Virus record (IMG/VR): IMGVR_UViG_3300021956_000001
Origin: a virus
Strand: one strand, 5' to 3'
DNA: 64,000 bases
The position numbers were made by a program, and so were the translations under genes. Positions 2,706 through 9,080 of the stretch are shown here, piece by piece (position 1 is the stretch's first letter; every line of letters begins with the position of its first letter). The notes beneath the pieces were generated by a model, which was not told the origin of the DNA, made no database searches, and saw only the letters and a program-made list of their open reading frames with translations.

Positions 2706-2966
2706 ATGAATCCAGATTTCAATTACAATCATGACAGTAAAAACTTAGATGAAGCTCTAGGTTTAGAACAAGACTTTTCAGAAAAGTTGACTAAGAAGAT
2801 AGTGTTGATCACTAGTACACTAGCTGAAAAAGAAACTTTATCAATTAGTACAATTGTTGAAGATATGGTAGCTATTTGTTCAGATGAACAAATTGCATTA
2901 TTAGCAGGATTTTACATCAAGGGACAATTTGATGGCTTTATGAAACACATTGAAAGCGAGGAATAA
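2706..2966 (+). CDS. hypothetical protein, paralogue of 2012..2509
   Basis: Shared N-terminal motif; preceded by AATCCTTAATAC motif. Confidence 0.55.
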   Translation: MNPDFNYNHDSKNLDEALGLEQDFSEKLTKKIVLITSTLAEKETLSISTIVEDMVAICSDEQIALLAGFYIKGQFDGFMKHIESEE

Positions 2967-3169
2967 TGAAACTAATACAAGAACTATTTAAGTTTCTTGA
3001 TATAGACCAGCATGATGAAGAGATAAACAGAGCATTTACTATGTTTATTAAGGTGCTTGTAGTGATTATAATGCTAGTAGCAATACTAGCATTTTCACTA
3101 CTTGTGTACAACATCATTGTACATGGTATATCAAAGAATGCAACATTTGGTCTAATTGATTATGTATAG
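2966..3169 (+). CDS. hypothetical TM protein (67 aa)
   Basis: TAATG overlap; helix VLVVIIMLVAILAFSLLVYNIIV. Confidence 0.5.
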   Translation: MKLIQELFKFLDIDQHDEEINRAFTMFIKVLVVIIMLVAILAFSLLVYNIIVHGISKNATFGLIDYV

Positions 3170-3171
3170 AC

Positions 3172-3465
3172 ATGGAAAAGAAACTATTACCTATAGGAAC
3201 TAAAGTTTATATCAGAGATGATTCAGAATATTATGAACAAGGTGTAAGTGGTGGTAAAAAAATTATTGGTGAAGTAACATGTCATTTAAGTTCTAAATAC
3301 ACATATGACGATTCTTATGTATATGAAGTAACTTGGAGCCAATATGACAATAATACATATAAACCTATTGATATTGAACCAGTAGAACCTATAGAAAGAG
3401 AAAAAAGCGAAGAAGAAATTAACAACGAATTAAAACAATTATTTAATAAAATCCTTAATAACTAG
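3172..3465 (+). CDS. hypothetical protein (97 aa)
   Basis: ATG ORF, compact spacing. Confidence 0.55.
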   Translation: MEKKLLPIGTKVYIRDDSEYYEQGVSGGKKIIGEVTCHLSSKYTYDDSYVYEVTWSQYDNNTYKPIDIEPVEPIEREKSEEEINNELKQLFNKILNN

Positions 3466-3469
3466 AAAA

Positions 3470-4489
3470 ATGAACACAGAAAGAACAACAACAATCGGAG
3501 AGAAATTTGTATTTATGGATAAGACTATGTCTATCCTTAATGTAGGTATGGCTACAAACAAGAATGTAGTGTTATATGGTCCAGGTGGACATGGTAAATC
3601 AGAAATCACATTAGATTTCTTGAAAGAGAAGGGAATTGATCCATATATCATCACTATGGGTACAGGTATGACAACAGACAGATTGTTTGGTGGTCTTAAC
3701 ATACCAACATTTGAAGCATCAGGTAAGATTGAATACTTGGTTGAGAATAGTTTCATGAACCATGAGTATGTTATCTTCGAGGAGATGTTTGATGCACCAG
3801 ATTTTATCTTGGAGCAATTGAAAGATATCATCTCAAGTGGTGTATTCAGAAATGGTACACAGAAGTTTCCTATCAAAACTAAGTTCATTGTATGTTGTAC
3901 AAATAGAACTCGTGAGGAATTCTCTAAGAATATGTCATTGAAAGCATTAATGGAGCGTTTTCCTCTTGAACTTAATGTTGTATGGGATAATTATACAGAG
4001 ATTGCTTACAACAAGTTGTTAGAAACTAAGTTTGGTGAAGGTAACATTGATCCAATCATTCCATTCTTGTTACAAGAGTATGCTAAGAATGGTATTGTTA
4101 TTTCACCTCGTGTAGCTGTAACAGCTTACCAAGTGTTTGAGCAATGTGGACCAGATTCATTAACATTTATTGCTGAGTTTGCTAAGAAACCATCATTAAT
4201 TGCTGATGCTATCAAGAAATTTGAATCAACCATCAAGTTTAGAGAGATGTCTGCAGAGATTTCTGAATTGATTGATCTATTGGAAGCTAATAGTATGTCA
4301 ACTAGTGATGCTACAAAACAGTTCAAGAAAGATCTTACAGAGCTTCAAAACAAATTAGCAGCTGTTAAGAAATTAACTGTTAATGATGATATTGCACACA
4401 TGCTTGCATCATTGACTAAAGCTGTTGGTGAGAAAGTGAAAGCTTTTGATAAGAAACAACAAGTAGCACAAATAGTAGTAGAACTATAA
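3470..4489 (+). CDS. AAA+ ATPase, MoxR/CobS-like
   Basis: Walker A LYGPGGHGKSE, Walker B-like YVIFEEMFDAP; ~340 aa; followed after 2 nt by a vWA protein as in CobS-CobT / MoxR-vWA pairs. Confidence 0.8.
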   Translation: MNTERTTTIGEKFVFMDKTMSILNVGMATNKNVVLYGPGGHGKSEITLDFLKEKGIDPYIITMGTGMTTDRLFGGLNIPTFEASGKIEYLVENSFMNHEYVIFEEMFDAPDFILEQLKDIISSGVFRNGTQKFPIKTKFIVCCTNRTREEFSKNMSLKALMERFPLELNVVWDNYTEIAYNKLLETKFGEGNIDPIIPFLLQEYAKNGIVISPRVAVTAYQVFEQCGPDSLTFIAEFAKKPSLIADAIKKFESTIKFREMSAEISELIDLLEANSMSTSDATKQFKKDLTELQNKLAAVKKLTVNDDIAHMLASLTKAVGEKVKAFDKKQQVAQIVVEL

Positions 4490-4491
4490 TT

Positions 4492-5862
4492 ATGTGGGAA
4501 GATGAATTTGATTATGGATATGGGTCTTCAAAGGCCCATAATCCATATAGCTACACATATGGTGGTGGCTACAAAAGTAAAGGCAGAACTAGTTGGTCTA
4601 GAACTAGTTGGTCAGGTTTTTCATTTGCAACAGCATTTGAAGATGATGATGCTGATTTGATGGTGAAAGACCCTGTGTCTTATATTACACCAACAAAGGT
4701 TGAGATCAAAAGAAAAGCAAGTGTTTGGAAAGATGAGGCTATTGATACTATCAAAGAGTTAGCACGTGTGTGTTATTTCAAAATGTTAGATGAGAAAGAC
4801 TATCTAAGAGAAGATCTTGCAGACTGGGAAAATATAGATGATGAATTGAAAGGACAATATAGTCAAAAGAAAGAACTATATGATAGCATTTATGATCAAT
4901 TTATTCCAGGATTTACACCATTAGAGCAAGCAATTGCTATATTTCTTCAATTACAAAGTAGTAATGCTGAAAGAGATGGAGGTGAGAAGTCAGATGAACT
5001 AGATATGCAGAAGACATTAGGATTTGATAGAGAATTATATTCTGATCCAACAATCAACGAACAACTAAACTATAATGAGTTAAGTAAAGAGAGAAAGATG
5101 GAGATCATGAATAAGATTTCTATCATTGGTGATCTTGGTACTCAGTTTAAAGTGGAGAAAGAAGTTGAGGAGAAGATTGTAGCAAACTCTGATCAGTATG
5201 CTAAGAAGATTATGAGAGACTATTCACAGTTTCACATGATTGATCTATATCAAAAGATGTTTCCTAACTTTAGAAGTAAGTTCTTAACTAAAGACTTAAC
5301 AGTTAATGTTCCTGTTGATAGAAAAGAACAAAAGCAGAAGATTATTATTCTTTTGGATTACTCTGGATCTATGGATTATGATGAGAAACAAATCTGGGTT
5401 AATGCTATTCTTATAGATAGATTCAGATATGTTATGAAAGGAGAAGCTGAAGTGTTCTTTAGTTATTTTGTTGAACACACAGGAGAACTTCAATTTCATC
5501 ATGTTACTAATAGAGAGGAAGTTATTCAATTCTGGCAAATGTTCTCTAATGAACCTGATGGTGGTACAACAGCAATTGGTGACATTGTAAACTATGTAGC
5601 TGATCAAGTTGTTAATCATCATAAGTTACACAATCTTGATATTGATTTGTCAGAAGAGAAACCAGAAATCTTAATCATCAATGATGGTCAAGATAGAGTG
5701 CATTCAGAGAAGTTCCCTTATAAAGTGAATGCTATATCATTAATGCAATTTAGCGATCAATTAAAAAATCTTTGTGTTGCAACAGATGGTAAGCAAGTGA
5801 AGGTGGAAGAAAATGATGTTGTTACAGCATATTCTAAACAAGGAGAACAAATCATCTCTTAA
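4492..5862 (+). CDS. von Willebrand factor A (vWA) domain protein, CobT-like partner of the AAA+ ATPase
   Basis: C-terminal MIDAS DxSxS (IILLDYSGSMDYD), GGTTAIGD, IINDGQD; low-complexity/acidic N-terminal half. Confidence 0.75.
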   Translation: MWEDEFDYGYGSSKAHNPYSYTYGGGYKSKGRTSWSRTSWSGFSFATAFEDDDADLMVKDPVSYITPTKVEIKRKASVWKDEAIDTIKELARVCYFKMLDEKDYLREDLADWENIDDELKGQYSQKKELYDSIYDQFIPGFTPLEQAIAIFLQLQSSNAERDGGEKSDELDMQKTLGFDRELYSDPTINEQLNYNELSKERKMEIMNKISIIGDLGTQFKVEKEVEEKIVANSDQYAKKIMRDYSQFHMIDLYQKMFPNFRSKFLTKDLTVNVPVDRKEQKQKIIILLDYSGSMDYDEKQIWVNAILIDRFRYVMKGEAEVFFSYFVEHTGELQFHHVTNREEVIQFWQMFSNEPDGGTTAIGDIVNYVADQVVNHHKLHNLDIDLSEEKPEILIINDGQDRVHSEKFPYKVNAISLMQFSDQLKNLCVATDGKQVKVEENDVVTAYSKQGEQIIS

Positions 5863-5877
5863 TAATTTTGTTAATTA

Positions 5878-5904
5878 AGCCCTGTAATGTATATTTGCAG
5901 GGCT
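5878..5904 (+). terminator. hairpin after the vWA gene
   Basis: AGCCCTG (5878-84) pairs with CAGGGCT (5898-5904); no long T-run. Confidence 0.4.
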
Positions 5905-5919
5905 ATTAAACTAAAGCTT

Positions 5920-6000
5920 ATGAAGAAGAAAACAGCAGGTGTTGTATTACTATTTACGTTCTTTTTATTATTAATGATAACAAAGGTAACAAACCCATGA
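5920..6000 (+). CDS. micro-ORF, 26-aa hydrophobic peptide
   Basis: Hand translation MKKKTAGVVLLFTFFLLLMITKVTNP; ATGA-coupled to the next ORF. Confidence 0.3.
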   Translation: MKKKTAGVVLLFTFFLLLMITKVTNP

Positions 6001-6116
6001 TAGATACATATAATGAACCACCAGAAGAGTTCGAAAGAGAATGTGCTTTTTGTGGAGAGCCTACAAACAAAGAATTTTGTAGTAAGGAATGTAAGAAAGC
6101 TAATGATAATGATTAA
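5997..6116 (+). CDS. 39-aa Cys4 zinc-ribbon protein
   Basis: Hand translation MIDTYNEPPEEFERECAFCGEPTNKEFCSKECKKANDND (CxxC-x8-CxxxC); replaces antisense ORF 5871..6137. Confidence 0.4.
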   Translation: MIDTYNEPPEEFERECAFCGEPTNKEFCSKECKKANDND

Positions 6117-6661
6117 AAACCACACATAGAAAGACAAACAAGTAAGTTAAAAATATTTGTGAGTGCAAATTATGAAAACTCTCACTTATAACACTATCAA
6201 GAGGTGTTATGTTTGTTGAGTATGATAATAGTTAAAGCGTACACCTGACTTTTTGCGTTAGCTCTACTTTAATGATTTATCCCAATCTTGATGGATGTGT
6301 GGTTTTATAATAAAATAGCTAAGCTGTGTAAAGTGTCAGAACTGATAATCTGTTAGAAGCTATAGGTTAAACATTGAATACCTTTGTAATAACTAAAGAA
6401 CGATAATCGTGAAACCAAGTAAGGGTAGAGGTGTTCATATAAGTTTTACATAAAGATACTATCAGTAATGGTAGATGTGTTGTTCCCTTGAGAAAGGAAT
6501 TGGAGAAATGTGGCAATGGGTTTCCAACTCCCACACAACACAAATGAGTTCTCAGCTTGACCCTACTCTTATATGGGCGTAAATATAAAGAAACAGTCAT
6601 ATAAGAAAGAGGGTGCTAGATTTAAAAAAGTAATGATAAGTGTCCTCACATGAGGAATATT

Positions 6662-6984
6662 GGGGGCGACTGGTTTTGACAGGTTACCACTAATTAATAC
6701 AATCAGCCAGAGAGATAACTGTAAACTAAGGTGAATTTAATTAATTGGCAACAAAACAACTCGTGTAGTAGCTCTAGGAGCAAACGCACAAATCGAAGCT
6801 AACATGAACAAAGTATTCTCTCTATTGGGAGAAGAAGTTGCTGTAGCAGCCTAAATTGAATAAGGATTTCTCTGTTAGATTAAACAGAGTGGTGGATCGT
6901 TAAGCCTAGCTTGACCCTAAATAAGCTGTATAAATTGTATTAATGAAAGTAGTTTGGACGTGGGTTCGATTCCCACCGCCTCCA
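6662..6984 (+). ncRNA. ssrA: tmRNA (SsrA), full length, phage-encoded
   Basis: 5' GGGGGCGACTGGTTTTGACAGG and 3' GGACGTGGGTTCGATTCCCACCGCCTCCA match tmRNA ends; 7-bp acceptor (6662-68 / 6977-83) with G3:U70; T-arm GTGGG/CCCAC; internal tag frame 6747-6851 ending ..EEVAVAA then TAA 6852-54. Confidence 0.85.
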
Positions 6985-7138
6985 CTAGAACTTGGAATTG
7001 TAGATACATTGATTCCTTACAAACCTTGTAATGTTGGCCGTTATTATGAAGTGCTAATCTGCAATTCTGTTACATTACGTGTACATTTATTAAATAGCGA
7101 ATAATAACATAGGTGACTAATAGGAAAGACTATTAAAT

Positions 7139-7327
7139 GATTGAGTGGCGGAATAGTTAGGAATATTAAAGGTCCTTTCATGGTAGACGCTTTATGTATT
7201 TGTGATATAAAAAAATTGCTATGGTCAGAGTCTTGGCAAAGTTACCGCATAGATGGTGTACATAACACCTAAACAATACATAAGATGGTGTACAACAATA
7301 CAGGTTCGAATCCTGTCTCAATCACAG
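7139..7327 (+). other. tRNA-like element (tRNA-Leu-like D-arm and canonical T-arm/acceptor, about 110 nt too long)
   Basis: GATTGAG (7139-45) is the exact complement of CTCAATC (7320-26). T-arm ACAGG-TTCGAAT-CCTGT. 5' part TGGCGGAAT...GGTAGACGC resembles class II tRNA-Leu D-arm with an insertion. No clean cloverleaf could be folded by eye. Confidence 0.3.
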
Positions 7328-7458
7328 CAGTTGCTTGATGTCAAATATGTACAGCAACAGACATTGGAGAAATTTGGCTTCTCATGAATGTTAAGTCCTA
7401 TCCACACAGAGAAGGAGTTGAGTACTTACGGAGGAAGTAGAGTCCAATCTCAACAACA

Positions 7459-7486
7459 AGGCTATCAGAAATGGTAGCCTTTTTTA
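7459..7486 (+). terminator. rho-independent terminator closing the RNA island
   Basis: AGGCTA (7459-64) / TAGCCT (7475-80) followed by TTTTTTATTTT. Confidence 0.65.
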
Positions 7487-7517
7487 TTTTATATTAATCC
7501 TTAATAACTATAAAAAC

Positions 7518-7664
7518 ATGAAAACAATTAAAATGAAACCAACTGAGTTTTATCAGTTCAGACAATTAGCATTTGCAATGAGTGTTGCATTTGTATGTAC
7601 AATAGCACATGGTGTGTATATTGTAGAGGCCAATATAAATCAACTTGAGAAGTTGGGTTATTAA
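7518..7664 (+). CDS. hypothetical protein (48 aa, below cutoff)
   Basis: Hand translation MKTIKMKPTEFYQFRQLAFAMSVAFVCTIAHGVYIVEANINQLEKLGY; preceded by AATCCTTAATAAC motif; replaces antisense ORF 7558..7764. Confidence 0.4.
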   Translation: MKTIKMKPTEFYQFRQLAFAMSVAFVCTIAHGVYIVEANINQLEKLGY

Positions 7665-7677
7665 GGAGGGGAATGAT

Positions 7678-7707
7678 GGGCTCTGTAACAGGAGCCCTTA
7701 TTCTTTT
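7678..7707 (+). terminator. hairpin plus T-rich tail
   Basis: GGGCTC (7678-83) / GAGCCC (7692-97) then TTATTCTTTT. Confidence 0.45.
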
Positions 7708-7945: not shown

Positions 7946-8680
7946 ATGAAAACATTTGTAATGGGAGATATCCATGGTAATCATAGAGCAATGTTACAAT
8001 GCTTTGAGAGAAGTGGATTTGACAAACAGAAAGACACACTTATACAATTAGGTGATGTAGCAGATGGATGGAGTGAAACTGCAGAATGTGTAGAAGAACT
8101 ATTATCCATCAAGAATCTAATTAGTATTAGAGGTAATCATGATGTATGGGTTAATGATTGGTTCCAAATGGGCCAAACACCTATATTATGGACAGAACAA
8201 GGTGGTAAAGCAACTATGGCTTCCTATGTAAGAACAGGATTGTTAGTAGATCAACATCATAAAGACTTCTGGAAAGACCAACAAGATTGGTATATAGATG
8301 ATCAGAATAGATTGTTTATACATGCTGGTTGGGATTATCATTATGAAGGACCATGGGAGAAACAAGCTGGTTTAAGAGTGAATGCTGGTACAACAGCAAG
8401 AGAATGTCATTGGGATAGAAGCCTTATACTTGGTGCTAGATCAGCATTTGGTAAGAAGAATAATCCTGCTGGTAAGTTTAAACCTCTTGAACAGTTTCAT
8501 GAAATCTATGTTGGACACACTGCTGATAACACAGGACCTCATCAATATGGTAATCTATGGAATCTTGATAGTGGAGCTGGTTGGACTGGTAAACTTACCA
8601 TCATGAACATAGATAGTAAAGAATATTGGCAAAGTGATTTCGCAACCTTATTATACCCAGAAGAAAATGGAAGACGATAA
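7946..8680 (+). CDS. calcineurin-like metallophosphoesterase (lambda-PPase/ApaH-type Ser/Thr phosphatase)
   Basis: Motifs GDIHGN, GDVADG, RGNHD, later HAG and GH. Confidence 0.85.
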   Translation: MKTFVMGDIHGNHRAMLQCFERSGFDKQKDTLIQLGDVADGWSETAECVEELLSIKNLISIRGNHDVWVNDWFQMGQTPILWTEQGGKATMASYVRTGLLVDQHHKDFWKDQQDWYIDDQNRLFIHAGWDYHYEGPWEKQAGLRVNAGTTARECHWDRSLILGARSAFGKKNNPAGKFKPLEQFHEIYVGHTADNTGPHQYGNLWNLDSGAGWTGKLTIMNIDSKEYWQSDFATLLYPEENGRR

Positions 8681-9080
8681 ACCAGAATACTTAGGATTCT
8701 TTAGTAAGTGGATTAAGCCAGTACATGAATCAAAGAAAAAAGCACAAGCTCAAGAAGAAGAAGAAGAAGAGCTAGCAGATAGAACTGATGAGTTAGCTGT
8801 GCGAATGGAACAAGATGAAATAAGACGTAAACTAAAATTATCTATATCACAAAGTATGTTTATGTTCAACTCTACACCACCAACTCCTAATGGATATATT
8901 TATGGAGCAGATGCAATTTCTGAAGAAGTAAGACCTGAACCAATTGATATGACTCAATACATCCATAAAGATGAAATGGTTCAGATATTATTAGATTCAA
9001 GACATGCTATGTTTAATGATAGAATTCCATCAGTATTAGAAGTGTTGGAATGGATAGATCAACGTGAAAGAAAAAAATGA
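8667..9080 (+). CDS. hypothetical acidic protein
   Basis: Start moved to internal ATG 8667 (MEDDKPEYLG..), 14-nt overlap with phosphatase; the track start 8634 would overlap 47 nt. Confidence 0.5.
   Translation: MEDDKPEYLGFFSKWIKPVHESKKKAQAQEEEEEELADRTDELAVRMEQDEIRRKLKLSISQSMFMFNSTPPTPNGYIYGADAISEEVRPEPIDMTQYIHKDEMVQILLDSRHAMFNDRIPSVLEVLEWIDQRERKK

What the first reader, a model, noticed from the sequence alone, without database searches (positions are those of the whole stretch)
6138..6661. About 520 nt of ORF-free, visibly structured sequence upstream of the tmRNA: candidate large ncRNA
In a genome where genes normally abut or overlap, 6138-6661 has no credible ORF on the plus strand. The only long frame is antisense (6367..6600) with poor protein-like composition. 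Nested long-range complementarity is visible. TGTGTTGT (6478-85) pairs with ACAACACA (about 6534-41). That helix encloses GGAATTGGA / TCCAACTCC, which pairs at 8 of 9 positions. Local hairpins include GTGAG..CTCAC (about 6160-6186), ATAGCT..AGCTAT (about 6314-6364) and TCCTC-ACAT-GAGGA (about 6643-6656). Large ornate ncRNAs such as GOLLD and ROOL are characteristically found in phages and prophages next to tRNA-type genes.
Basis: partly seen in the sequence, partly recalled or inferred. Interest (0 to 1): 0.6.

Follow-up and report, generated by a model that had tools for sequence, protein, structure and literature searches.

The report
Array of new phage structured RNAs
The gene-free stretch in front of this phage's tmRNA is not spacer: it is a row of at least three conserved, folded non-coding RNA modules from uncatalogued families seen almost only in phages of Bacteroidota-type hosts, and what they do is unknown.

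Summary
There is no conserved ORF on either strand. Almost every base belongs to modules that recur, always in the same order, in many uncultured phage contigs.

- **Domain I (6117-6305):** a pseudoknotted RNA closed by an 11-bp helix. Five of its 11 pairs show compensatory changes.
- **E1 (6311-6363):** a leader hairpin. All four inner pairs covary.
- **P hairpin (6364-6383).**
- **Core (6443-6620):** a hairpin with a GNRA loop, a three-way junction, a loop-to-strand pseudoknot and a long bulged helix. Across 84 homologues 98% of cells are paired and 18 of 24 pairs show double changes.

Rfam 15 matches nothing here, including GOLLD, ROOL, group I introns, RNase P and 6S. The modules also occur separately, with their own promoter or terminator, or inside tRNA arrays. 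The region is therefore better read as an RNA-gene operon than as one known large RNA. Its order is promoter 5863-5897, two tiny ORFs, Domain I, E1, P plus core, tmRNA, a tRNA-like gene, a trailer RNA and terminator 7458-7491.

The only cultured carrier of the core is the crAss-like Cellulophaga phage phi14:2. The matching intergenic regions there were reported as very abundant, stable long non-coding RNAs.

Function is inferred, not shown. This scan had already met the family on other DNA.

The parts
5863..5897 (+). Bacteroidota-type promoter: -33 TTTG inside TAATTTTG, and -7 box TATATTTG (5890-5897) set in a CCCTG...CAGGG hairpin. It is the likely start of the whole RNA operon.
   Evidence: One search shows TAnnTTTG with TTTG about 20 nt upstream. 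Region 5865-5907 is conserved in relatives L002-L006. In L005 the same element directly precedes the tmRNA. In L011, L115 and L120 it directly precedes E1. Promoter activity is inferred.
5997..6116 (+). 39-aa Cys-rich ORF, preceded by a possible 26-aa hydrophobic ORF (5921-6000). They lie between the promoter and the RNA modules.
   Evidence: No Pfam match. DNA similarity to Flavobacterium phage 1/32 under annotated hypothetical proteins (H39).
6117..6305 (+). Domain I RNA.
- Closing helix 6117-6127 with 6295-6305.
- Inner helix CAAACAA 6136-42 with UUGUUUG 6212-18.
- Hairpin AACAC 6190-94 with GUGUU 6204-08.
- The loop AUCAAGA 6196-6202 pairs with UCUUGAU 6286-92, forming a pseudoknot.
- Variable inserts at 6145-6189 and 6230-6280.
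   Evidence: Alignment A7 of 18 copies: 97% of cells paired, and 5 of 11 closing-helix pairs have changes on both sides. A 21-mer is exact in 18 IMG/VR contigs. It occurs alone with its own terminator (L266), with its own TAnnTTTG box (L258), or inside tRNA arrays (L256, L263). The inner helix 6136-42/6212-18 is seen by inspection only.
6311..6363 (+). E1 leader element.
- Outer stem AUAGCU 6315-20 with AGCUAU 6358-63.
- Inner hairpin CAGA 6337-40 with UCUG 6349-52.
- 8-nt loop ACUGAUAA.
   Evidence: A 19-mer is exact in 47 IMG/VR contigs. All 4 inner pairs covary and 99% of cells are paired (A8). Elsewhere it sits right after a TAnnTTTG box and ends 0-3 nt before a tRNA 5' end.
6364..6383 (+). 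P hairpin: stem AGGU 6364-67 with ACCU 6380-83, and a conserved 12-nt loop UAAACAUUGAAU. It is the constant 5' companion of the core.
   Evidence: The stem varies in a compensatory way: AGG/CCU, GUGG/CCAC, GUGC/GCAC, CUCA/UGAG, AAGA/UCUU, CCGU/ACGG and UGG/CCA. The loop is kept. This was read by inspection; no formal count was made because MAFFT did not gap the 3' side.
6384..6442 (+). Variable linker between the P hairpin and the core. It is absent in short forms, where P sits about 10 nt from hairpin A.
6443..6620 (+). Core RNA.
- Conserved 5' strand UUUACAUAAAGAUA.
- Hairpin A 6459-64/6469-74 with a GUAA loop.
- Helix B 6476-82/6536-42.
- Hairpin B1 6483-86/6496-99.
- Variable hairpin B2 6500-6533.
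- Pseudoknot: B1 loop UUGAGAA 6488-94 with UUCUCAG 6549-55.
- Helix D 6560-75/6598-6614 with conserved bulges.
- Tail GCUA.
   Evidence: Model R1 finds 84 copies in 100 loci. In A5, 98% of cells are paired, 18 of 24 pairs show double changes, and 0 of 500 shuffles reach the observed values. The base of helix D is mostly invariant. Its upper part covaries by inspection. The pseudoknot has one compensatory case (L024) and one wobble intermediate (L108).
6621..6661 (+). tmRNA 5' leader with hairpin UCCUC-ACAU-GAGGA (6643-6656).
   Evidence: Region 6633-6661 is conserved with the tmRNA in L003, L004 and L006. L003 has CCCUC/GAGGG.
6662..6985 (+). tmRNA (known family). It lies outside the finding but in the same operon.
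7139..7324 (+). tRNA-like gene with a perfect 7-bp acceptor stem (GAUUGAG/CUCAAUC) and a T arm. It is 186 nt long, so it is interrupted or expanded.
   Evidence: Sequence. Rfam tRNA partial hit 7284-7324 at 23 bits, below threshold. The fold keeps the acceptor stem and T arm.
7325..7456 (+). Conserved structured trailer RNA that always starts right after a tRNA or tmRNA 3' end.
   Evidence: An alignment of 19 copies shows compensatory changes by inspection: GUUGCU/AGCAAC to GUUACU/AGUAAC, and GUUGAG/CUCAAC to GAUGAG/CUCAUC.
7458..7491 (+). Intrinsic terminator closing the RNA operon.

Best explanation
Window 6117-6620 is a tandem array of at least three structured non-coding RNA modules: Domain I, E1, and the P hairpin plus core. 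They belong to uncatalogued, essentially phage-only RNA families.

**How it most likely works (inferred).** The modules are transcribed as part of one RNA-gene operon. The operon runs from a Bacteroidota-type promoter at about 5863-5897, through the tmRNA, a tRNA-like gene and a trailer RNA, to the terminator at 7458-7491. Host tRNA-processing enzymes then cut at the tRNA-like 'punctuation' (RNase P at tmRNA and tRNA 5' ends, RNase Z-type enzymes at 3' ends). That releases compact, nuclease-resistant folded RNAs that accumulate and act in trans. They would most plausibly bind or decoy a conserved host or phage factor of translation, tRNA metabolism or tRNA-directed defence.

**Shown:**
- absence of a conserved ORF;
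- conservation;
- base-pair covariation;
- modular occurrence;
- restriction to phage contigs;
- enrichment next to T-arm RNA genes.

**Inferred:**
- co-transcription;
- processing;
- stability;
- trans action.

**Unknown:** the target.
For: **No coding signal.** No ORF is conserved on either strand.

**Conservation**
- A core 20-mer is exact in 69 IMG/VR contigs ranging from 4 kb to 373 kb.
- Only 3 contigs, all from MAGs, carry it among one genome each of 185,579 prokaryote species.

**Covariation**
- Core: 98% of cells paired and 18 of 24 pairs with double changes.
- Domain I closing helix: 5 of 11 pairs.
- E1 inner hairpin: 4 of 4 pairs.
- P hairpin: by inspection.

**Modularity**
- Domain I occurs alone with its own terminator or promoter box, or between tRNAs.
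- E1 occurs between a promoter box and a tRNA.
- Of 117 P+core units, 86 have no T-arm-like hairpin, E1 or Domain I within about 130 nt upstream.

**Operon reading**
- The promoter is at 5863-5897.
- No terminator lies between there and 7458.
- L005 has the same promoter directly on the tmRNA.
- L011 has promoter, E1, P, core and tmRNA in a row.

**Link to tRNA-type genes.** A T-arm-like hairpin lies within 700 nt downstream on the same strand in 37 of 101 cases. The controls give 0 of 101 on the opposite strand and 8 of 92 far upstream.

**Homing endonucleases.** Their genes have inserted at the two most conserved spots of the core. This is as expected for a gene under strong purifying selection in a phage population.

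**Expression of a relative**
- phi14:2 carries P+core (R1, 59 bits) and a tmRNA-like gene (46 bits).
- They lie in the two long gaps that flank one gene.
- Drobysheva et al. (bioRxiv 10.1101/2020.03.07.982082) report two long intergenic regions in their re-numbered annotation.
- Those regions are transcribed rightward, above most genes, from the earliest time point, and do not decline later.
Against:
- The mapping of the phi14:2 paper's g004-g006 numbering onto GenBank coordinates is my inference.
- ARAGORN finds a tmRNA or tRNA within 800 nt downstream for only 16 of 116 cores. No protein partner gene is shared; the largest cluster covers 24 of 169 instances. The tie to tRNA biology is therefore statistical, not obligatory.
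- Terminators are not enriched after the core: 8 of 123 against 49 of 600 controls. That fits a cis-acting leader as well as it fits a processed RNA.
- The pseudoknots rest mostly on invariant pairs.
- Whether the modules act separately or fold together in this phage is untested.
Confidence: 0.55

Rival explanations
1. Cis-acting leader. The modules are not products in their own right. They act on the transcript that carries them in one of three ways: guiding folding, processing or stability of the tmRNA and tRNA-like genes; acting as 5' stabilisers (E1); or modifying the transcribing polymerase so it reads through downstream terminators, as the put RNAs of phage HK022 do.
For: - The modules always lie on the same strand as their neighbours.
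- Terminators are not enriched after the core.
- In the window, the only terminator sits after the RNA genes and just before the next protein genes.
- E1 lies at the very 5' end of predicted transcripts and abuts tRNA 5' ends.
- The core lies 40-300 nt upstream of a tmRNA in at least 10 loci.
Against: - Downstream genes are very diverse, and most cores have no RNA gene after them.
- Domain I can be a free-standing unit with its own terminator (L266).
- The phi14:2 relatives stay abundant while other early transcripts fall, as stable products would.
- According to that paper, phi14:2 early genes are transcribed by a virion RNA polymerase unlike the host enzyme. A shared polymerase-binding role across these phages is therefore harder to picture.
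Confidence: 0.22
2. One large ornate RNA. In this phage, 6117-6620 (about 500 nt) folds and acts as a single multi-domain molecule in the manner of GOLLD or ROOL, possibly forming multimeric assemblies. The modules found alone elsewhere would be reduced versions.
For: - Module order is invariant: Domain I, E1, P, core.
- The Domain I to next-module junction (GGUUUUAUAAUAAA) is conserved in several phages.
- Two domains are pseudoknotted and one carries a GNRA tetraloop that could dock elsewhere.
- The setting is a phage next to tRNA-type genes, as for GOLLD and ROOL.
Against: - Each module occurs without the others.
- There is no helix that joins the domains and no covariation between them. 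The one candidate contact, E1 loop with hairpin A, does not covary.
- There is no Rfam similarity to GOLLD or ROOL.
Confidence: 0.14
3. Relic or unusual self-splicing intron or mobile element. The core would be an unrecognised group I-like ribozyme spread by homing endonucleases.
For: - HNH-type endonuclease ORFs sit inside the core in L004, L048, L057, L010, L083 and L092.
- The GUUCUCAGC stretch is loosely reminiscent of the group I 'R' element (from memory only).
- A pseudoknot and peripheral variable hairpins are present.
Against: - There is no Rfam group I or II match at E<=10.
- The strand order of the pseudoknot does not fit P3/P7 topology.
- Flanks are unrelated between copies, and no interrupted gene is restored by removing the element.
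- The endonuclease genes sit at two different sites with target duplication. That fits free-standing endonucleases targeting a conserved gene.
Confidence: 0.04
4. Small protein genes or chance structure in an AT-rich spacer.
For: - A 77-aa antisense ORF exists.
- The fold z-score is only about -2.4, and is similar on both strands.
Against: - The ORF is not conserved.
- Variable-length inserts break any frame.
- 20-nt blocks are identical across very different phages, and their stems covary.
Confidence: 0.02

Closest known systems
The two abundant 'long non-coding RNAs' of Cellulophaga crAss-like phage phi14:2 (Drobysheva et al., bioRxiv 10.1101/2020.03.07.982082)
   Same: phi14:2 carries a P hairpin and a full core at record positions about 2909-3400 (R1, 59 bits). 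It also carries a tmRNA-like gene at 4031-4502 (46 bits against a cut-off of 47). Both lie in the two long gaps that flank one gene. The order (core, then tmRNA) and the orientation match the window.
   Different: The paper reports only transcript abundance, with no sequence family, structure or tmRNA identification. A 106-aa gene lies between core and tmRNA. My pattern checks found no E1 or Domain I motif in the phi14:2 stretch fetched. The mapping of the paper's gene numbers to coordinates is inferred.
GOLLD and ROOL (large ornate RNAs of phages and prophages, often beside tRNAs)
   Same: They are phage-borne, large, multi-pseudoknotted, adjacent to tRNA-type genes, without a protein partner gene, and of unknown function.
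   Different: There is no sequence or structure match in Rfam 15. The hosts differ: Flavobacteriia-type here, judged from relatives and promoter type. This locus is built of separable modules of 50-190 nt rather than one 600-800-nt RNA. Multimer formation is untested.
Stable RNAs C and D (species 1 and 2) of the phage T4 tRNA gene cluster (from established knowledge, not tested here)
   Same: They are non-tRNA stable RNAs of unknown function, encoded within and processed from a phage tRNA operon.
   Different: There is no sequence relation. The T4 RNAs are smaller and are not known to be widespread families with pseudoknots.
tRNA-punctuated processing (mitochondrial transcripts; the MALAT1 mascRNA 3'-end) as a mechanism
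   Same: Folded RNAs abut tRNA-like acceptor and T-arm structures at their 5' or 3' ends. RNase P and RNase Z could therefore define their ends.
   Different: This is only an analogy of mechanism. No cleavage data exist here.

Membership tests
GOLLD / ROOL (Rfam) | Match to the family covariance model (sequence plus secondary structure) | tested here: not met
   No hit at E<=10 in window 5800-7700. None at gathering score on the whole window or on 15 homologous loci. None on a complete homologue at E<=10.
Group I intron | Match to the Rfam Intron_gpI model, or a P3-P7 pseudoknotted core in canonical strand order | tested here: not met
   No hit. The pseudoknot joins a hairpin loop to the strand directly 3' of the enclosing helix, which is not the P3/P7 order.
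Group I intron | Interrupts a gene whose exons are restored on removal | tested here: not met
   Flanks differ between copies. tRNA and tmRNA genes beside it are intact.
Group I intron | Self-splicing activity | not testable with these tools
   Needs in vitro transcription and a GTP/Mg assay.
RNase P RNA, 6S RNA, SRP RNA and other Rfam families | Match to any of the 4227 covariance models | tested here: not met
   Only the tmRNA passes. Everything else scores 24 bits or less, well below its cut-off.
Uncatalogued phage 'P+core' RNA family (this scan; phi14:2 lncRNA) | GNRA-capped hairpin A, 7-bp helix B closing a three-way junction, and a B1 loop UUGAGAA complementary to UUCUCAG | tested here: met
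   The window scores 113 bits with R1. All helices are present at 6459-6555. R1 was built from an alignment that includes the window, so the match is partly by construction. The independent evidence is the exact 20-mer and 18-mer matches.
Uncatalogued phage 'P+core' RNA family | 3' helix D with the conserved GACCCUACUCUUA ... UAAGAAAGAGGGUGCUA frame | tested here: met
   6559-6618. The window lacks the optional helix C, as do L011, L032, L034, L035, L045, L056 and L073.
UG27 reverse-transcriptase ncRNA arrays (bioRxiv 10.64898/2026.09.22.753630) | Array of repeated ~150-nt units next to an RT plus two accessory genes | tested here: not met
   The modules are unlike one another. No RT-sized conserved neighbour appears among 169 contexts. 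None of the 18 window proteins scanned against Pfam is an RT. Not every window ORF was scanned.
tmRNA (for 6662-6985 only) | Rfam RF00023 above the gathering score, with an ARAGORN tag peptide | tested here: met
   93.3 bits against a cut-off of 47. Tag peptide ends in ...EEVAVAA.

The most novel reading that the evidence does not exclude
The core and Domain I are new functional RNA classes with an activity of their own. One possibility is a ribozyme that matures the phage's RNA operon without host RNases. Another is a self-assembling RNA (GOLLD/ROOL-like cage or scaffold) that captures or protects tmRNA, tRNAs or a host factor. Either would give phages of Bacteroidota an RNA-only tool to take over or shield translation against tRNA-targeting defences.
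Probability: 0.13. Interest if true: 0.9.

Novelty: new member of a known kind. Interest (0 to 1): 0.66.

Why it matters
Complex-fold bacterial and phage RNAs without a known job are rare. Past examples (riboswitches, ribozymes, OLE, GOLLD, ROOL) have repeatedly led to new biochemistry.

This locus offers several such folds at once. They are abundant in aquatic viromes and restricted to phages. They are interleaved with tmRNA and tRNA-like genes, at a time when phage tRNA genes are being recognised as counter-defence tools. One family member sits in a cultured model phage, phi14:2, where the RNA is already known to be highly expressed, so the question is directly testable.

The result also corrects annotation. 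Tiny 'hypothetical proteins' gp007-gp009 and gp011-gp014 of phi14:2 overlie these RNAs and an unannotated tmRNA-like gene.

Tried and rejected
- **Rfam:** searched at gathering and at E<=10 on the window, on a homologue and on phi14:2. Only the tmRNA was found.
- **Whole-genome search:** no genome is held for this window.
- **Coding hypothesis:** rejected.
- **Group I intron idea,** raised by the endonuclease inserts: rejected on topology, Rfam and missing exon context.
- **E1 loop to hairpin A contact.** The E1 loop ACUGAUA is perfectly complementary to UAUCAGU of hairpin A. Phages whose hairpin A differs (L084, L105/L113) keep an unchanged E1 3' half. From the stretches I read there is no sign of covariation, so I drop the contact.
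- **P element as a mere promoter** (it contains TACCTTTG, a TAnnTTTG box): the covarying stem and conserved loop argue for RNA structure. A dual role is not excluded.
- **Independent transcription unit for the core:** terminators are not enriched after it.
- **A shared protein partner gene:** none found.
- **UG27 RT arrays:** no RT found and no repeated unit.
- **Formal pair count for the P hairpin:** not made, because MAFFT left the 3' strand ungapped.
- **Fremin et al. 2023 catalogue of 8,495 IMG/VR candidate RNAs (PMC10690425):** it may already list these motifs without names. Its supplements are not held, so this could not be checked.

Full report
**Setting.** The window is a phage genome fragment.
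- It carries MoxR-type ATPase and vWA genes, a DnaB-like helicase, a primase-like gene and RecA.
- Its only DNA-level relatives among deposited phages are Cellulophaga and Flavobacterium phages, and they match almost only through the tmRNA.
- Five IMG/VR contigs of 45-113 kb share the vWA gene at 59-67% identity.
- ARAGORN and Rfam agree on a tmRNA at 6662-6985.
- Between the stop of the vWA gene (5862) and the next protein gene (7518), only two tiny ORFs exist, ending at 6116.

**Check of the observation.** On the + strand, 6117-6661 holds no ORF above 35 aa. The 77-aa antisense frame is not conserved.
- The inner helix is partly mis-assigned.
- The three local hairpins exist.
- Fold energy alone is unimpressive (z about -2.4 on either strand).
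- Rfam finds nothing but the tmRNA, even at E<=10.

**Conservation.** Comparison with the five relatives showed patchy, block-wise conservation and very different gap lengths between the vWA gene and the tmRNA. The gap runs from about 55 nt in L005 to 2.4 kb, with inserted genes, in L004.
- A 20-mer from the best block (6455-6474) has exact matches in 69 IMG/VR contigs of very different sizes.
- An 18-mer from 6534-6551 matches 35 contigs.
- A 19-mer from 6315-6333 matches 47.
- A 21-mer from Domain I matches 18.
- The same pattern hit only three MAG contigs among one genome each of 185,579 prokaryote species.

The elements therefore look essentially phage-borne. Among 50,697 deposited phage records, blastn finds the core only in phi14:2 and E1 only in Flavobacterium phages elemoA and elemoC.

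**Anatomy.** The blocks always come in the same order.

- **Domain I (6117-6305).** It is closed by an 11-bp helix whose outer pairs change in a compensatory way: CCA/UGG, UCA/UGA, CCAA/UUGG, UAA/UUA and CUAAA/UUUAG. Five of the 11 pairs have double changes and 97% of cells are paired. Inside it lie conserved strands that can form CAAACAA/UUGUUUG, a hairpin AACAC/GUGUU, and a loop-to-strand pairing AUCAAGA/UCUUGAU. These inner pairs are invariant or vary only on one side (wobble), so they are untested.
- **E1 (6311-6363).** It has an outer stem whose inner five pairs are nearly invariant, and an inner 4-bp hairpin in which every pair covaries.
- **P hairpin (6364-6383).** It keeps a 12-nt loop while its stem changes in a compensatory way.
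- **Core (6443-6620).** I built covariance model R1 on its 5' half and found 84 copies in 100 loci.
  - On that alignment, hairpin A, helix B and hairpin B1 all covary. Hairpin A always carries a GNRA loop (GUAA, GUGA, GAGA or GAAA).
  - Overall, 98% of cells are paired, 18 of 24 pairs have double changes, and 0 of 500 shuffles reach the observed values. Slid controls give 37-49% paired.
  - The alignment was fitted to the model, which favours the structure. The MAFFT-only alignment gives the same picture.
  - The B1 loop UUGAGAA is complementary to UUCUCAG just 3' of helix B. These bases are almost invariant. One phage has the double change G-C to A-U (L024) and another has the G-U intermediate (L108).
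  - Helix D has a nearly invariant base and an upper part that covaries by inspection. Many phages add an optional helix C that the window lacks.

**One RNA or several?** The modules are separable.
- Domain I is followed by its own terminator in L266, is preceded by a TAnnTTTG box in L258, and lies between tRNAs in L256 and L263.
- In several phages E1 lies directly after a TAnnTTTG promoter box and ends 0-3 nt before a tRNA. Examples are tRNA-Ala in elemoA and class II tRNAs elsewhere.
- Of 117 P+core units, 12 have E1 upstream, 8 have Domain I and 13 have a T-arm hairpin. The other 86 have none of these.
- I found no helix or covariation that links the domains.

The window therefore holds one of the most elaborate arrangements of a modular system. 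L011 has the simpler row of promoter, E1, P, core and tmRNA. L005 has the promoter directly on the tmRNA.

**Transcription context.**
- A canonical Bacteroidota promoter lies at 5863-5897: TTTG, then TATATTTG about 20 nt later, embedded in a conserved hairpin.
- The only terminator is at 7458-7491.
- Downstream of the tmRNA lies a 186-nt tRNA-like gene with a perfect acceptor stem and T arm (7139-7324).
- After that comes another conserved structured RNA (7325-7456). In 16 of its 19 aligned copies it starts directly after a T-arm and acceptor end.
- Across the family, T-arm-like hairpins lie within 700 nt downstream on the same strand in 37 of 101 cases. The opposite strand gives 0 of 101 and far upstream gives 8 of 92.
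- ARAGORN itself calls a tmRNA or tRNA within 800 nt in only 16 of 116 cases.
- Terminators are not enriched after the core.
- No protein gene is a constant neighbour.

**Homing endonucleases.** HNH-type endonuclease genes, or their remnants, sit inside the core at two spots. One is right after hairpin A (L004, L048, L057). The other is within GAGUUCUCAGC, with duplication of the target (L010, L083, L092). I read this as endonucleases exploiting the most conserved sequences of a widespread gene, not as evidence for an intron. No group I model matches, the pseudoknot order is wrong, and no exon is restored.

**Expression of a relative.**
- phi14:2 has the P hairpin and core at record positions about 2909-3400, and a tmRNA-like gene at 4031-4502.
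- Both lie under tiny annotated ORFs, in the two roughly 690-nt gaps that flank gp010.
- Drobysheva et al. describe two long intergenic regions on either side of one gene.
- Those regions are transcribed rightward at higher levels than most genes, from the first time point, without later decline. The authors call them long non-coding RNAs of unknown function.
- The match of the paper's numbering to these coordinates is my inference.

**Interpretation.** Structured non-coding RNA is, in my judgement, about 95% certain. The mechanism is inferred.
- My leading reading is co-transcription in an RNA operon, release by tRNA-processing enzymes at the tRNA-like punctuation, and action in trans as stable folded RNAs on a conserved factor of translation, tRNA metabolism or defence.
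- The very high sequence conservation across unrelated phages points to a conserved partner.
- The tRNA and tmRNA neighbourhood, and T-arm-like hairpins grafted into peripheral helices in some copies (L007, L012, L050), point towards tRNA biology.
- The main rival is a cis-acting leader role in processing, stabilisation or antitermination.
- A single GOLLD/ROOL-like large RNA remains possible for this particular phage.

**Novelty.** None of the modules is in Rfam 15.
- Earlier notes of this scan (e1-5351829, e1-5677028, e1-3279842) describe what appears to be the same or an overlapping family on other DNA. The scan has met it before.
- The phi14:2 transcripts were published without structure or family.
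- A 2023 catalogue of thousands of unnamed IMG/VR candidate RNAs may include these motifs. That could not be checked.
- I file the finding as new families within the known category of orphan phage structured RNAs.

Noticed in passing
window 7139-7324: A tRNA-like gene with a perfect 7-bp acceptor stem (GATTGAG/CTCAATC) and a canonical T arm. It is 186 nt long, so it has about 100 nt of extra sequence in the D and anticodon/variable region. ARAGORN misses it. Rfam tRNA matches only the acceptor plus T-arm minihelix (23 bits). Rfam calls similar over-long tRNAs (99-111 nt) in L004, L007, L016 and L023.
   Followed up: partly
window 7325-7456: Another conserved structured RNA of about 130 nt. In 16 of its 19 aligned copies it begins directly after a T-arm and acceptor end. 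Compensatory changes are visible in at least three helices. No Rfam match.
   Followed up: partly
window 5863-5907: A conserved promoter-like hairpin, CCCTGTAATGTATATTTGCAGGG, carrying the Bacteroidota -7 box. The same element directly precedes the tmRNA in L005, and precedes E1 in L011, L115 and L120.
   Followed up: partly
L097 (KC821624.1 phi14:2), record about 3106-3431 and 3912-4519: Seven tiny annotated 'hypothetical proteins' (gp007-009, gp011-014) overlie the P+core RNA and an unannotated tmRNA-like gene. The tmRNA-like gene scores 46 bits on Rfam, one bit under the cut-off (E 1e-16). These ORFs are probably mis-annotations.
   Followed up: partly
L003 about 8247-9033: In this relative, the tmRNA match stops near the T-arm region and homology resumes about 790 nt later. 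A 162-aa minus-strand ORF lies in between, and ARAGORN calls no tmRNA. The gene may be interrupted (by an intron or insertion) or broken.
   Followed up: no
L004 8839-9369; L010 about 3720 onward; L048 about 10650 onward; L057; L083/L092: HNH/NUMOD-type homing endonuclease genes are inserted into the core RNA gene at two recurrent positions. In L083 the insert is a decayed remnant with target duplication.
   Followed up: partly
L133, L134, L135 (genome contigs): The only 'cellular' hits are MAG contigs labelled Saccharibacteria, Sphingobacteriales and Nitrososphaerota. They are probably phage contigs mis-binned into MAGs.
   Followed up: no
L004 7496-7528: An Rfam DUF805b RNA motif hit just above its threshold (36.7 against 35.6 bits). 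It lies between the vWA gene and a 281-aa ORF.
   Followed up: no
window 3470-5862: A MoxR-like AAA ATPase followed by a vWA protein. This pair sits directly upstream of the RNA operon and is shared with 17 of 169 core contexts.
   Followed up: no
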